Source of the DNA: a virus
Length of the DNA stretch: 64,000 nt
Reading direction: 5' to 3' (one strand)
Virus record (IMG/VR): IMGVR_UViG_3300014208_000028
Coordinates: 93,123 to 157,122 of that record
The position numbers and the translations under genes are program-made. Numbering within the stretch: the first letter of the stretch is position 1; every line of letters starts with the position of its first letter. Shown here in pieces: positions 50,621-56,600 of the stretch. The notes below the pieces were generated by a model that saw only the letters and a list, made by a program, of their open reading frames with translations, did not search any database and had not been told where the DNA came from.

Positions 50621-53600
50621 TCTTTTTCCCCTCGATTATGGCGTTCCATTATTTTCTGAATATCTATACCTTCAGCAATTGCAGGTATAGGATTAAGTCC
50701 ATGTTTATTACTACTCTCACCATATAATATACTATTAAGTAAGCTGCTTTCTATATGATGGAAATTTAACTTAGCCATCCAATCTTCTATTATTTCTAAC
50801 GGCGCGACATTAATTCCTTTTATAATAGGCTTATACTCTATTGGAGATAATTCTATAGGCACATTATTTAACTTTATCTTAGGTAACATACTCTTGGTAA
50901 CTACAGTACCTTTACTATAACCTGGAATATCTTCAGATAATTTATGTCCTATAGCTTTACTTTTTTCTATCTCTTTAAAACGCTCACTCTTATTATAATA
51001 GTTTATTTTAGAAGTAGGAACAATATCTCCGCGCAAATAATTGTTATTATCTCCAGCGTGAGTTACTTCTCCCATACCGCCAATATTACGAACTACTAAT
51101 TCAAAGTTTTTACGTTTAGTAGCTCCAGTAATACTCATTAGATCTCTCATTTCATCTATTAAGTAATTCTGGGTAGCTTCTGGTCCACGCAATTCTAATA
51201 ATTCGCGGGGATCGATAAAACCAGCAGATAATACTTGCCCTTTTTTAACATCATTACCTTTATGTACTTTTAATTCTAATCCTCTAGGCACCCAATGTTT
51301 AACCGCACTTTTCATACTCTCACTTTTTATAAATACATCATAGCCGCCCATAACAGAAGGTTCTATATTTTCTACTTTACCGTAATATCTAGATATAGTA
51401 GCTTTATTTTTTACGTTCTTAGGTAATAGTAATAACTGCTGTAATCTAGTTAATGGGTCTACCTGTTTACCCGCAACGCCTCCAGTATGAAAGGCTGAAA
51501 GGGAAAGCTGTACTGTAGGCTCTCCAATAGATTGAGCAGCTTTAATACCTACATGTGTTCCCATCTTAGGTTCATGACCTGTCTCATCTAAGCCCATACA
51601 TTTCTGACAAACACCTTGAGGTAATTCACAGCGTAAAGGAGATCTTACTACTATATTTTTTATATTAGCTTTTTTAAATGTAGCTAAAAGTGCGGGAGTT
51701 ACTAGAGTATTATGATTATAAATATCATCTCCTACTTTTACAGTTTGAGATAAATATCTATCTAAACTTTCTGGGTCCTCCGTACTCATATTAATCCCGC
51801 GCTTTGTATTACAATCGGCGGATATTACTATAGTGTCTAACATTGTATTAACTAACTGCTTAGATAAATATCCAGGGTCTTTAACTTCTTTCTGTTTAGA
51901 AGCAGTACCCTTACGAGCGCCATGAGTATGGGCTAAGTATTCAGCTATATCTAAACCCTTACTAAAGTTTCCTTTAATGGGATATGGAACAGCTTCACCA
52001 AAGATATTCTGTACCATACCTACTGATCCTAATATCTGTGCTAAGTTTCCCCACTTACCTTTCGCGCCAGATATAGTTAAAGTATGTAAATGATTATCAT
52101 CCTTTTTATCAGCCTGTAATTCTAATCCCGATTTTAATATTTTATCCGCATCTTCTTTAGCATCATTGAATATACTTATTTTTTCATGATCAGTTAATTT
52201 GCGGCCAAATATTTTCTTCTCAGCTTCTACCCATATATTTTCTATGTCTTTATTAACCTTATCACTCATACCAAAGTCTTTCATAGAAAGACTAAAGCCG
52301 CTATCATAACTTTCTTTAAAGCCGTGATCTTTAAGATTATTAACTATACGAGCATAACTCTCAGGATGATCCTTAGCTATACTAGTAACTATCTTAATTA
52401 ATTCTTTAGAGTTAATAGGATAAGATATTTTAGTATCAGCCGGTAAATCCTTAGCAATTAATTCGCGGCCAGCAGAAGTTAATTTACTGCCTATATGAAT
52501 CATATCAGTAATACTTATAACTCCTTTATTCAGCGCGGCTATAACAGATTCTGAATTACTAAATTTTTTATTAACATGTTTTCCTTCTTTAGTCATAAGA
52601 TAAATACCTAATGTACTTTCCTGTGTAGGATAATATACTATTCCTCCATCTCTAGGACTAAATAAATTACTAGAAGGTAACATAGCTCCCATCTCCCCGA
52701 TAGCCTTATCGCTAACGGGGGCAAAAAGAGCTACTGTATCTTGTAGTATAATAGAATTTGCGGCCATGAAAGTATAACTTCCAGGAACTGTAAAATCATA
52801 AGCAACACTACCAGTAGTAGGAGTAATTTCTTCCACTATATCCCAAAAAATATGATTGTTTAATACTATATCTTTCCACATAGAACCTTTATAAATATTA
52901 TGAATATTTTCTCCTAATATATTTAAAGTCTCTAATGCTTTAGCTCTAGAAATATATCCTCTATCTATACTTTTTCTAAGCTCTACATATAAATTACTAT
53001 GCCCCTTATTAGATATATACTTTTTAGTAATTTCATTTAAAGCATTTCCATTTGTAGGGACTATATCATTTCGCGCCGAAGAATTAGCATCAAATCCAAT
53101 CTCGAACATATCTTTCATATGTCCTAATTTTGTAGGATGATGAAGTACTAATTTATCTTTATATTGGATAGTGTCAGGCAAAGATACCGTAACATAAAAT
53201 GCGTCTCCTACTCCATTAGTCTTTTTAGTTCTAGTTATCCCCGACTTTATTCCTAAAGATGTTAATAATAAACTTACCTCATCAGCCAATATTTCACTTA
53301 TAGTACAGTAGTTAGACATATATTGAGGTTTCTTTTTAGACTTAGCTTGCACCTTACTTACGGTGCCGTCTCCGTCCATAAGACCAGCTAATAATCCCAA
53401 TCTAAAGTCTTCACACGCATCGAGATAAAAAGGAGGCAAATGCTTATTTCCTGCACGATGACCATTTAAAGTCATTATTAGAGAACTTAATTCAGTTGAA
53501 GTAGCTACTACTTTATGTGAAACATATTTACCTTCACAAAAATCTTGATTACGCTGTTCATAATCTCTAAAACTTAAATCATCACTAAAGTATTTAGATA

Positions 53601-56600
53601 ACCCCTCTTTTACATAATCTCTTACTTCAGGAATTACTGAAGCGAAATTAATAGCTTTACCGTCTCCCCACCCTTCCCCTACAAATAATCCGAGAACATA
53701 CCCAGTATGATAATTTAAAATTAATTTATCATTAGATACTTTTCCCATAACATCTTTCTTATTATTTCTATAATAAGCGTCTATAGGAACCTCAGTTAAG
53801 TTTTTACCTTCTAAAATTCGCGGGCGAGGAGTAAGTTTATTAATGGCGTTAGCAGGAGTTATCTTATTTAAATTTAATTCCTCATCTATACAATATAAAC
53901 TCATATCATCACTCACTATTACTTCTCTATTGCCCCGCGTTTTTACAGTAACTAATTTTAAATCCTTATGAACACTATATTGGGTTATCATAGTTCTTTC
54001 AATTTTCTTAGTTTCAAAATTATAACTATGTATATAAATACCTTCAGGCACTTTATATAACTCTACATTACCTCGTATCTCAGGCTTACCAGTTTTCGGA
54101 AAGTCTTTTATATGTATTGTCTTATTACTAAAAAAACTCTCTTTATCATTCACTACAATCTTTGTACTACCATCTATCATATTACATACCTCCAAAGCTT
54201 TATTGTCAGAATTATATAACTGATTATTTATTTTATTTTCAGTTATATCTTCTAAACTTAACTTTAAGGTATCACAACTTTCAAGCCCTGTCAAATTCTC
54301 CTCAAAATATTTTGCTATATCTTTATTCGCTGTATTGTAACTGATTGAAATCATTCCGAAATAGCAGTCTCCGTCATAATCCGCACCCAGTCCTTTATTG
54401 ATCATACTATTAATTTCAATAGCATCTCCAGCAATTAATTTAGGTTTAACTGCCATAATACCAAATTTATGTAATACAGGGTCGCGTTTAATTTTAAGAG
54501 GTCTTTTAGATACTTCTAATTCTAATGTTCTAAAAGCTGATGGATGTTGATCATCTATCATCTTCATAGCTTCATTAGGTTTATAACCAGCCTGGACTAA
54601 ACGCTTCATAATAAACGGCTCATATATCTTCCACGCCATTTTTATAGGCAAACCTATCTCGTCTAATCCTAAAGCAGGGTTAGGTACAATAACAGAACGA
54701 CCGCTAACGTCCTGTTTACGTTCACGTACTAATGCTTTTTGGAAATATCCTTCTTTAGGACTATTACCTTTTATAATTTCCATAACGCCTTTATATTTCT
54801 TGCCCGCTTGCATAGAACCACTTAATTCTAAGTTTTTAACCGCAGTATAAAGATTATTATAACTTTCGTTAACATCTTCCTTGGTTAATATTTTTTTAGC
54901 CGTTTCTAAACTATCATTATGTAAGCTAATATCTTTATATAAATAATTAAGATCATCTATAGTAGGAGAACCAGAGCTTAATAATCCTATAGGTCTAAAA
55001 ACCGGAGGAATGACAGGTATTAATTTTCTAATATAAGCTTCTCTAGGAGAGAGATTAAGCTTATCAAGGTTTCTTAATATTTTAACTCTTTTCCTTACTT
55101 TAGCTAATTCACTACCAGATAATTTATCTAACATAGCTGTATATTTAATAAGATCGGCTTTTACATTTACATTATCTAATAATTTTATAAAAGCTTTGCT
55201 AGTAGTATATTTATAGTCTTTAGTAATTTTATTACTATCGTCTATACCTAATTTGCCCGCCATTATATTATTAAAAGTTTCATAAGTTATACCTAGTATA
55301 CTTACTATAGCATCTTCAAATACTGGATTAGGAATAGAGTCGTTTAATGATATATGAGTCCATTTATTACCATCTAATCCTCCAGTTAATTTTTCATCGA
55401 ATATTCCGCCCTTTTCAGGCTTCTGATCCTTACCGCGAATGGCCTTCACAGCGTCTACAGCGCCCCTAGAAAGCTTTGTAACATCACGATCCATCAATGG
55501 GGTAAGGTTAAGTAAATTACCCTCTTTTACCGTATCTACTCCTAATACTTTTAAATAGCCTAAAAATTTCTCATAGCTAAAAGGTATTTTTGGCGGAGGT
55601 AAAGGCTGTCCTAAACGTAATGCCTCCCAATACTCTGGATTATAATCACTTTTTATAGTATTCATTTCAAGTAAATTAGCAGGGGCACCATGAGCTAACA
55701 TAGCGTATAAACCTAAATGACCAATAGCCTGTCCTCCACCTTCAGAGCCTTTAGGTATTCTATTTATATTATAACTCTCTCCAGCCCCGCCAGATCGAGA
55801 GGCCATTTTATGAGAAACCTGCTGTTTTAATTTAACAATATACTGCTTACCAAACATTAATTCGCCTAATTCTTTATCAGTATTAGGATCAAACATTATT
55901 TCAGTATCTTTTAAATTATATTTCTTTAATTCAGCTTTTATCTTATCCATATAATTTTCGCCGCCAGAGAAATTCTCTACCATATAAGGTTTGCCAGTCT
56001 TATCAGCTATTTTAGAGGCAGCAGACTCTAAAACTTGCCCTACATTCATACGAGTAGTAATAACTGTTGGACTAAACAGTACATCAGCTATTTTATCATC
56101 ATGAGTACGAGGCATTTGATCAGTAGGTACTATATGAGTTATAACTCCTTTACTACCTACTCTATTAGTATTGCCTGTCCAACATTCTTTACCATTTCTA
56201 CGTACATACATAATATGAGTAGGTACTGTGCAACAATAGATATAATTATCGTAATCTATCCACTCACTTTTATAAGTATCATTTAAATAAATATCTTCTA
56301 ACCCCCCCGCACTATTTTTCTTTAAATAACAATAACTTTCGCGGGGCCAGAATGGTTTATCTAAATCTTTAGCCATTACAAGCTTATAAATATCTTTACT
56401 ATTAGCATAGTTATTTAAAAGAGTATTTATATCTTTTATATACATATTATGTTCAGCATTAACGCAAATACTTAATTCATCTCCTTCAACTAAATACATT
56501 CTATCTTTATGATAATAATTAGTAATTAATTCAGGGGCGTCATATTGTATTTTTTGAGTAATAGGATTCCAACTACATACTTCATCACTATATTTTAAAT

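What the first reader, a model, noticed from the sequence alone, without database searches (positions are those of the whole stretch)
52738..54366. Intein in the RNAP active-site loop with an atypical Gln-Asp C-terminus
Seen: the insertion starts at Cys right after ADYDGD and the extein resumes at TVALFAP, which restores the NADFDGDQM-equivalent motif. The intein therefore ends ...SIILQD, lacking the usual His-Asn. About 60 extra residues follow the first Cys, including a second start-like segment VCNMIDGSTKIVV. Established: most inteins end in Asn; Asp-terminal inteins are rare (the Carboxydothermus hydrogenoformans RIR1 intein is the studied case). Inference: polymerase activity depends on a non-canonical splicing step that could act as a conditional switch.
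Basis: partly seen in the sequence, partly recalled or inferred. Interest (0 to 1): 0.7.

Follow-up and report, generated by a model that had tools for sequence, protein, structure and literature searches.

The report
Asp-ending intein in phage RNA polymerase
A self-splicing, mobile protein insert (intein) really does sit in the magnesium-binding catalytic loop of this groundwater phage's only RNA polymerase; it belongs to a large family, not found in the literature I could search, that always ends in aspartate instead of the usual asparagine and carries a conserved internal translation start.

Summary
Residues 1546-2088 (window 52738-54366, minus strand) of a 2794-aa fused beta-beta' RNA polymerase are a 543-aa insertion between ADYDGD and TVALFAP. 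Ninety-five intein-free relatives read DFDGD-(T/A/Q..)M with no extra Asp.

A confident AlphaFold model matches LAGLIDADG inteins. Cys1546 aligns to intein residue 1 and Asp2088 to the last residue.

The Gln-Asp end is not a one-off. In 56 of 56 related clusters at this site the insert ends in Asp, preceded by W, Y, Q or F. Position 1 is always C, S or T, and +1 is always T, S or C.

It keeps Ser B:7, Asp F:4 and a conserved upstream His1678.

The "60 extra residues" are a disordered linker after the first strand and helix. It holds GGAGG, 8 nt, then an in-frame ATG (Met1608). This start signal is conserved across relatives, and one relative is truly split there.

Most likely mechanism: class 1 splicing with Asp cyclisation (inferred, not shown). 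The "conditional switch" has no support.

Seven Asp-ending relatives have Asn at -1, which is unexplained.

This scan noted the same family earlier on other DNA (e1-1940431, e1-5355373).

The parts
50617..59001 (-). Fused beta-beta' RNA polymerase gene (2794 aa precursor; 2089 aa after removal of both inteins). It is the only beta' homologue in the 199,871-bp phage record.
54367..54384 (-). N-extein end ADYDGD (residues 1540-1545), the Mg-binding Asp triad. Asp1545 is the -1 residue.
52738..54366 (-). Intein, Cys1546 to Asp2088, 543 aa: Hint splicing domain with a nested LAGLIDADG endonuclease.
54289..54366 (-). First strand (1550-1556) and short helix (1560-1570) of the Hint domain. This is the part that would be the short N-piece in atypically split inteins.
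   Evidence: pLDDT 69-90; model residue 7 aligns to residue 1 of solved inteins
54145..54288 (-). Variable linker, residues 1572-1619, predicted disordered.
   Evidence: pLDDT below 50 for model residues 33-80; length varies from 0 to about 60 aa among relatives
54189..54193 (-). GGAGG Shine-Dalgarno-like sequence, 8 nt upstream of the in-frame ATG.
   Evidence: It is the only one of 7 GGAGG in the ORF that is followed by an in-frame ATG at 4-11 nt.
54178..54180 (-). ATG of Met1608, the candidate internal translation start. Met occupies this column in 41 of 56 family members.
53962..53979 (-). YSVHKD with His1678, conserved in 52 of 56 family members. It aligns with the R-H of PI-PkoII/TkoII and is a candidate equivalent of the motif NX histidine.
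   Evidence: PMC10189870
53899..53913 (-). Block B, SDDMS: Ser1697 is B:7; Met1700 is B:10, where inteins normally have His.
53668..53703 (-). LAGLIDADG motif 1 (GYVLGLFVGEGW) with the acidic residue Glu1776.
53365..53397 (-). LAGLIDADG motif 2 (GLLAGLMDGDG) with invariant Asp1878.
52738..52806 (-). Blocks F and G: Asp2069 (F:4, invariant), Thr2071, Gln2087 (G:6), Asp2088 (G:7, invariant in the family).
52717..52737 (-). C-extein start TVALFAP. Thr2089 is the +1 nucleophile.

Best explanation
Residues 1546-2088 are a working class-1-type intein with a nested LAGLIDADG homing endonuclease. It sits exactly between the third catalytic Asp (D1545) and Thr2089 of the phage's only RNA polymerase. 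The precursor cannot be an active polymerase until the insert is removed.

Proposed path:
1. Cys1546 makes the N-S acyl shift at the D1545-C1546 bond. Ser1697 (B:7), Asp2069 (F:4) and probably His1678 assist, in place of the missing block B His.
2. The acyl group moves to the Thr2089 hydroxyl.
3. The terminal Asp2088 cyclises (to an anhydride, where Asn would form a succinimide) and frees the intein.
4. An O-N shift gives ...ADYDGD-TVALFAP....

The Asp terminus is inherited from a large family of phage RNAP active-site inteins. After the first strand and helix comes a disordered linker, at the place where atypically split inteins are split. The linker carries a conserved ribosome-binding site and ATG (Met1608). 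This could allow separate translation of the endonuclease-bearing part, or it may be a remnant of split ancestry.

Shown here: the borders, the fold, family membership, the residue inventory, and conservation of the start signal. Inferred: that it splices, the chemistry of each step, and use of the internal start.
For: Borders:
- 95 intein-free alleles read DFDGD-T/A/Q...
- In the model, residue 7 (Cys1546) to residue 549 (Asp2088) aligns to residues 1 to last of PI-PkoII (Z 30.9, rmsd 3.1 A over 392 residues), and likewise to PI-PfuI, PI-SceI and the Mtu RecA intein.

Fold:
- AF2 mean pLDDT 87.2, pTM 0.88.
- Foldseek best hit is the TliVMA intein, E 3e-21.
- Pfam Intein_splicing and LAGLIDADG_3.

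Family (56 clusters at 50% identity):
- Terminal Asp 56/56.
- Position 1: S 31, C 21, T 4.
- +1: T 51, S 4, C 1.
- F:4 Asp 56/56.
- All 139 intein-bearing alleles have T, S or C at +1, whereas 39 of 95 intein-free alleles have a residue other than T or S (A 27, Q 6, K 3, N 1, E 1). So a +1 nucleophile is required.

Selection:
- Intein identity to P0003 and P0004 is 45-48%, against 48-51% for the flanking polymerase.
- There is one RNAP gene only.
- The endonuclease acidic residues are kept.

Literature:
- Asp, Gln and Glu termini can cyclise in step 3 (PMC4031507).
- Block B His is dispensable in the PolB16 intein, where an upstream His is critical (PMC10189870).

Internal start:
- Window: GGAGG, 8 nt, ATG.
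- P0003 locus: the same spacing, although the surrounding linker sequence differs, plus TTGACA-17-TATGAT.
- 14 of 25 loci have SD-ATG in the linker, against 7.3% of other in-frame ATGs (binomial p = 3e-10).
- L022 is truly split at this place.
Against: There is no direct evidence of splicing: no protein, mass-spectrometry or expression data. Three of the usual assisting or catalytic residues are missing (B:10 His is Met, G:6 His is Gln, G:7 Asn is Asp). By PMC4031507, only two known inteins lacked B:10 His, and one of them is a pseudogene. His1678 is preceded by Val or Ile, not by the Arg or Lys that defines motif NX. I could not read model coordinates, so I could not measure its distance to the splice junction. 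Seven Asp-ended relatives have Asn at -1. Canonical splicing would then leave DFDGN, which hints that the chemistry of this family may not be fully canonical. The window has D on both sides of the insert, so its sequence alone cannot tell C...D from D C...Q as the excised piece. In the window the linker has a TATAAT but no -35 element.
Confidence: 0.7

Rival explanations
1. Non-canonical chemistry: in the Asp-ended family, the Asp before Thr+1 ends up supplying the third catalytic carboxylate of the mature polymerase, and the -1 Asp/Asn is dispensable or consumed. This could be a junction shifted by one residue, or an Asx-mediated step.
For: At -1, Asn replaces Asp in 7 of 56 Asp-ended clusters, with at least 3 independent origins on the tree. 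It never does so in 83 Asn-ended clusters or 95 intein-free alleles (Fisher p = 0.0014, inflated by shared ancestry). The Asp before Thr is invariant. An earlier scan note on other DNA saw the same DFDGN (e1-1940431).
Against: No known peptide chemistry joins Gly to Asp here. Position 1 (C/S/T) and +1 (T/S/C) are strictly kept, as class 1 needs. The terminal Asp aligns with the terminal Asn of the sister family and of solved inteins. D-to-N also occurs at the first (P0127, P0151) and second (P0084) Asp of the triad, where the intein cannot compensate. A simpler reading exists: Asn at -1 avoids the side reaction of an Asp next to a (thio)ester, at some cost to the polymerase.
Confidence: 0.08
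2. Conditional switch: the unusual end makes splicing, and hence polymerase activity, depend on a signal such as redox state, temperature or metal.
For: Splicing with non-Asn termini is slow in some inteins (PMC4031507). Cys1 could in principle be oxidised. The insert sits in the Mg-binding loop.
Against: No conserved second Cys: the linker Cys1576 and Cys1606 are not conserved, and position 1 is Ser or Thr in 35 of 56 relatives. The Asp end is a fixed family trait and not a recent change. No sensing domain appears in the model.
Confidence: 0.1
3. Decayed, non-splicing intein: the polymerase gene is dead or the insert is tolerated unspliced.
For: Met at B:10, Gln at G:6 and Asp at G:7. PMC4031507 notes that one intein without B:10 His is a pseudogene.
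Against: The 2794-codon frame is intact, and this is the only RNAP gene in a record judged complete. The intein has diverged no faster than the polymerase. The nucleophiles and F:4 Asp are kept. 15 of 56 relatives also lack B:10 His, and some of these are mini-inteins that have no other reason to persist. From general knowledge of RNAP structure, a 543-aa domain cannot fit into the buried catalytic loop.
Confidence: 0.05
4. The intein starts at Cys1606 (the 'second start'), or two nested elements are present.
For: CNMIDGSTKIVV resembles a block A pattern.
Against: Cys1606 is Leu in the closest relative. The segment has pLDDT below 50. The solved-intein alignment starts at Cys1546. Sixty extra residues would otherwise remain in the catalytic loop, unlike all 95 intein-free alleles.
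Confidence: 0.02

Closest known systems
LAGLIDADG inteins PI-PkoII/PI-TkoII (2cw7), TliVMA (7qss), PI-PfuI (1dq3), PI-SceI
   Same: Same overall architecture: a Hint splicing domain with a nested two-motif LAGLIDADG endonuclease. Alignments run end to end (Z 21.7-30.9 for 2cw7, 7qss and 1dq3; about 16-17 for PI-SceI). HMM match to 2cw7, E 2e-23.
   Different: Sequence identity is only 15-19%. Those inteins end in His-Asn and have the block B His. None sits in an RNA polymerase catalytic loop. None has a long disordered linker with an internal start after the first strand.
Inteins with Asp, Gln or Glu C-termini (Chy RIR1 with Asp; CIV RNR, Pab PolII with Gln), as reviewed in PMC4031507
   Same: The terminal Asn is replaced by a residue that can still cyclise. 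The class 1 nucleophiles at position 1 and +1 are retained.
   Different: Those are isolated cases. Here the Asp end is fixed in at least 56 clusters at one insertion site, always with a non-His penultimate residue (W, Y, Q or F). Sequence relation to Chy RIR1 was not tested, because that sequence was not to hand.
PolB16 OarG atypically split, cysteine-less intein (PMC10189870); also VidaL and Aes123 PolB1 (structural hits 6vgv, 9hth)
   Same: They come from phage or metagenome sources. The break point lies just after the first strand: natural short N-pieces are 15-37 aa (PMC13014065). Block B His is dispensable and an upstream His is critical. The family here mostly uses Ser1/Thr+1.
   Different: The window's gene is contiguous (cis-splicing) and uses Cys1. 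The conserved His is preceded by Val or Ile, not Arg or Lys. The terminus is Asp.
Tko CDC21-1 intein (natural loss of block B His, compensated by Lys58; cited in PMC4031507)
   Same: A natural class 1 intein without the B:10 histidine.
   Different: A different host protein and a different compensating residue. It ends canonically.

Membership tests
Class 1 intein | Cys/Ser/Thr at intein position 1 | tested here: met
   Cys1546. It aligns to residue 1 of solved inteins. C, S or T in 56 of 56 relatives.
Class 1 intein | Cys/Ser/Thr at +1 of the C-extein | tested here: met
   Thr2089. T, S or C in all 139 intein-bearing alleles, but not required in intein-free ones.
Class 1 intein | Block B Thr/Ser-x-x-His | tested here: not met
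   Ser1697 is present, but B:10 is Met1700. His is there in 41 of 56 relatives.
Class 1 intein | Block G His-Asn terminus | tested here: not met
   Gln2087-Asp2088. Asp termini are accepted variants of class 1 according to PMC4031507.
Class 1 intein | Hint fold with block F Asp (F:4) | tested here: met
   Predicted fold. Asp2069 is invariant.
Class 1 intein | Excision with ligation of the exteins | not testable with these tools
   Only inferred, from the intact frame, the single RNAP gene and co-divergence.
Class 3 intein | Cys at block F:4 (WCT triplet) and no position-1 nucleophile | tested here: not met
   F:4 is Asp2069 and position 1 is Cys.
LAGLIDADG homing endonuclease | Two LAGLIDADG motifs, each with an acidic catalytic residue, in the alpha-beta-beta-alpha-beta-beta-alpha fold | tested here: met
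   PF14528, E 9e-11. Glu1776 (D or E in 54 of 56 relatives) and Asp1878 (56 of 56). Fold matches to I-DmoI and I-Tsp061I. Cleavage activity was not tested.
Atypically split inteins | Gene broken after a 15-37 aa N-piece, with separate translation of the C-piece | tested here: not met
   The window's frame is open through the linker. But SD plus ATG sits at the equivalent place, and relative L022 is broken there.
Ser1-type inteins with motif NX (PMC10189870) | Conserved His, preceded by Arg/Lys, near the N-terminal scissile bond | tested here: inconclusive
   His1678 is conserved in 52 of 56 and aligns with the R-H of 2cw7. However, the preceding residue is Ile or Val, and no coordinates were available to measure distances.

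The most novel reading that the evidence does not exclude
The phage RNAP active-site inteins (the Asp-ended family of the window and its Asn-ended sister clade) do not all use known class 1-3 chemistry. The extein's own -1 Asp/Asn and the terminal Asp/Asn take part in the reaction.

Two observations point this way. The sister clade has no position-1 nucleophile and has Asp, not Cys, at F:4. Asp-ended members tolerate Asn at -1.

This would amount to a new mechanistic class tied to the DFDGD motif. It would come together with a cis/trans-splicing duality driven by the conserved internal start.
Probability: 0.12. Interest if true: 0.9.

Novelty: new variant of a known kind. Interest (0 to 1): 0.58.

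Why it matters
It shows that a phage's only RNA polymerase is made as an inactive precursor whose catalytic magnesium loop is completed by protein splicing.

It turns a supposed oddity (an Asp-ended intein) into a large natural family. That gives dozens of natural variants for studying how inteins work without the terminal Asn, the penultimate His and, in many cases, the block B His.

Most members use Ser1/Thr+1, and the break-tolerant linker lies right after the first strand. Both properties are sought in cysteine-less, short-N-piece split inteins for protein engineering.

The Asn-at-minus-1 relatives and the sister clade without an N-terminal nucleophile are concrete, testable leads to possibly new splicing chemistry.

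I found no paper on inteins at DFDGD in the searchable library. That library does not cover all of the literature.

Tried and rejected
- The search for related loci with the 96-sequence alignment A1 failed because no stretch was conserved enough. A 12-sequence alignment, A2, worked.
- Short database proteins that begin at the conserved Met (for example P0169) were first taken as split forms. I rejected this. In L003 the upstream frame is open to the contig end, so the start is a gene-caller choice on a truncated contig. Only L022 is accepted as split.
- The sigma-70 promoter scan of the window's intein region gave 11 sites against 11.1 expected, and none in the linker. The linker has a TATAAT without a usable -35. 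So an internal promoter is not claimed for the window, although L002 and L003 have TTGACA-17-TATGAT/CATAAT.
- Sequencing runs: no RNA holder is listed.
- Laying the two DNA runs showed no contig that joins across the intein. Contigs drop rare variants.
- Class 3 membership is rejected because F:4 is Asp.
- A second intein start at Cys1606 is rejected.
- The AF2 coordinates could not be read in the script box, so I could not measure distances from His1678 or Met1700 to the scissile bond.
- Literature searches for inteins at DFDGD or in phage RNAP beta' found nothing relevant.
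Full report
**Observation.** The window is part of a 199,871-bp IMG/VR phage record judged complete. It was recovered from groundwater metagenomes. ORF 50617..59001 on the minus strand is a single 2794-aa fused beta-beta' RNA polymerase. ADYDGD occupies residues 1540-1545 and is followed by Cys1546. The insert ends ...SIILQD at 2088, and TVALFAP resumes at 2089. These residues map exactly to the coordinates given, 52738-54366.

A search with the polymerase part found 120 fused phage polymerases. 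Their intein-free members are about 2090 aa and read ADFDGD-TMAVFVPVS. Across 95 intein-free alleles, -1 is Asp in all. The next residue is T 56, A 27, Q 6, K 3 and S/N/E one each. None has an extra Asp. The stretch is identical in contigs of two runs from two studies, though either may be the source of this DNA.

**What it is.** Pfam finds Intein_splicing and LAGLIDADG_3 in the insert. An AlphaFold2 model built on a 96-sequence alignment is confident (pLDDT 87.2, pTM 0.88). Its best matches are intein-endonucleases: TliVMA (E 3e-21), PI-PkoII, PI-PfuI and PI-SceI. In the second-look alignment, model residues 7..549 align with residues 1..537 of PI-PkoII (Z 30.9, rmsd 3.1 A, 392 aligned). They also align with 1..454 of PI-PfuI and PI-SceI and with 1..440 of the RecA intein. 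Model residue 7 is Cys1546 and residue 549 is Asp2088. The fold therefore supports the same borders as the orthologue alignment. Both LAGLIDADG motifs keep their acidic residues, Glu1776 and Asp1878.

**Family context.** A full-library phmmer search with the insert gave 1124 hits, 184 of them below 1e-30. Nearly all of the best 150 are phage RNA polymerases interrupted at the very same place. Three kinds of insert share this site:
- **Asp-ended family, 56 clusters at 50% identity.** The last residue is Asp in 56 of 56. The penultimate residue is W 21, Y 14, Q 14, F 5, E 1, R 1. Position 1 is S 31, C 21, T 4. The +1 residue is T 51, S 4, C 1.
- **Asn-ended clade, 83 clusters, mostly ending Ser-Asn.** Position 1 is usually not a nucleophile (Q, A, D, L, E and others), while F:4 is Asp, not Cys.
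- **A few ordinary Ser...His-Asn inteins.**

On a tree of the shared columns, the Asn-ended clade is monophyletic (support 100) and sits inside the Asp-ended diversity. The window groups with P0003 and P0004 (support 99). So Gln-Asp is an inherited family state; Gln is one of four common penultimate residues.

**Residue inventory.** A profile alignment to PI-PkoII fixes the blocks: Ser1697 is B:7, Met1700 is B:10, Asp2069 is F:4, Gln2087 is G:6 and Asp2088 is G:7. Block B His is present in 41 of 56 family members but is Met in the window.

[quoted passage not shown] Only two inteins were known without it, one of them a pseudogene. The same review states that Asp, Gln or Glu termini can replace Asn by cyclising in step 3.

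A conserved His1678 (52 of 56) lies 22 residues before B:10 and aligns with the R-H of PI-PkoII. In the PolB16 OarG intein, a histidine upstream of block B (motif NX) is essential while the block B His is dispensable (PMC10189870). His1678 may play that part. The match is incomplete, because the preceding residue here is Ile or Val and not Arg or Lys.

**The 60 extra residues.** The model places the first strand at 1550-1556 and a helix at 1560-1570. Residues 1572-1619 have pLDDT below 50. This stretch varies from 0 to about 60 residues among relatives. It includes CNMIDGSTKIVV, whose Cys is Leu in the closest relative.

What is conserved is Met1608, present in 41 of 56. The DNA before it reads GGAGG, 8 nt, ATG. 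Of seven GGAGG in the 8.4-kb ORF, this is the only one followed by an in-frame ATG at that spacing, and the phage's own genes use AGGAG-type sites. The P0003 locus has GGAGG, 8 nt, ATG at the same place, although the surrounding linker sequence differs. It also has TTGACA-17-TATGAT upstream. L003 shows the same pattern.

Across 25 loci, 14 have SD-ATG in the linker, against 7.3% of other in-frame ATGs (p = 3e-10). In L022 the gene is truly broken here, with a frame change, a stop and a new SD-ATG. The place matches the break point of natural atypically split inteins, whose N-pieces are 15-37 aa (PMC13014065). The "second start" is thus a start signal at the DNA level and not a second intein N-terminus. 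Whether it is used in the window is not shown.

**Selection.** Intein identity to P0003 and P0004 (45-48%) is close to that of the flanking polymerase (48-51%), and GC content is similar. The genome has no other beta' homologue. The insert has therefore been carried and kept functional for a long time.

**Mechanism.** Most likely this is class 1 splicing, in four steps:
1. Cys1546 makes the thioester.
2. The acyl group transfers to Thr2089.
3. Asp2088 cyclises.
4. An O-N shift completes the ligation.

Ser1697, Asp2069 and probably His1678 stand in for the missing histidines. All chemical steps are inferred. The borders, fold and conservation are shown.

**An unresolved point.** Seven Asp-ended clusters have Asn at -1 (DFDGN), arising at least three times. 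None of the 83 Asn-ended clusters or the 95 intein-free alleles do (Fisher p = 0.0014, overstated by shared ancestry). Canonical splicing would leave Asn where the third catalytic Asp should be. Two readings are possible:
- The polymerase tolerates Asn, and Asn at -1 spares the (thio)ester from attack by a neighbouring Asp side chain.
- The family's chemistry is not fully canonical.

The window has Asp on both sides of the insert, so its own sequence cannot decide.

**Comparison and verdict.** In architecture it is a LAGLIDADG intein like PI-PkoII. In its terminus it resembles the rare Asp- or Gln-ended inteins. In its break point and histidine usage it resembles PolB16 OarG. It fails two textbook class 1 features (B:10 His and His-Asn) and is not class 3. 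I rate it a new variant of a known kind.

The "conditional switch" idea has no support. This scan has met the family before on other DNA (e1-1940431, with DFDGN and a hidden start; e1-5355373, a split form). I found no paper on it in the searchable library.

Noticed in passing
window 56170-56655 (-): A second intein in the same gene: a 162-aa mini-intein (Cys783 to Asn944, ending Gly-Asn, +1 Thr) at the beta-subunit GDKL^(T/S)GRHGNKG motif. Several relatives carry an intein at this same site. Pfam gives no hit for it.
   Followed up: partly
window 832-3750 (+): A 972-aa AAA ATPase ORF carries a third intein (Hom_end_hint, LAGLIDADG_3 and Hom_end domains between residues about 383 and 662).
   Followed up: partly
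relatives P0010, P0018, P0067, P0075, P0117, P0127-P0269 (83 clusters): A sister clade at the same DFDGD^T site ends Ser-Asn. It has a non-nucleophile at position 1 (Q, A, D, L, E and others), Arg at B:10, and Asp (not Cys) at F:4, with Thr at +1. It fits neither class 1, class 2 (KlbA, Cys+1) nor class 3 (Cys F:4) as defined.
   Followed up: partly
relatives P0039, P0107, P0110, P0262, P0114, P0123, P0218; locus L023: Asp-ended inteins preceded by DFDGN or DYDGN. Canonical splicing would leave Asn in place of the third catalytic Asp. In the P0039 clade both conserved histidines are replaced by Glu or Asp. P0107 is a 280-aa mini-intein.
   Followed up: partly
L022:2250-2520: A truly split form: the upstream gene runs DFDGD plus about 57 codons to a stop, and an overlapping new frame starts with AAGGAG...ATG just before the DFPH motif.
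   Followed up: yes
L002 (P0003 locus) and L003:1-115: Near-consensus sigma-70-type promoters (TTGACA-17-TATGAT and TTGACA-17-CATAAT) lie inside the intein linker, upstream of the conserved SD-ATG.
   Followed up: partly
relatives P0127, P0151 (NFDGD) and P0084 (DFNGD): Asn also replaces the first or second Asp of the catalytic triad in intein-bearing polymerases.
   Followed up: no
relatives P0131, P0142, P0146, P0159, P0170 and others: Many intein-bearing relatives end about 90 aa after the C-junction at a common place (..DPVEI..; about window residue 2180). In L003 the gene stops there and the genes that follow it on that contig carry no RNA polymerase Pfam domains. So the same intein family probably also sits in split beta'-N subunits.
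   Followed up: partly
relative P0198: The insertion at the same site is 1005 aa, about twice the usual length. It may be a nested or tandem element.
   Followed up: no
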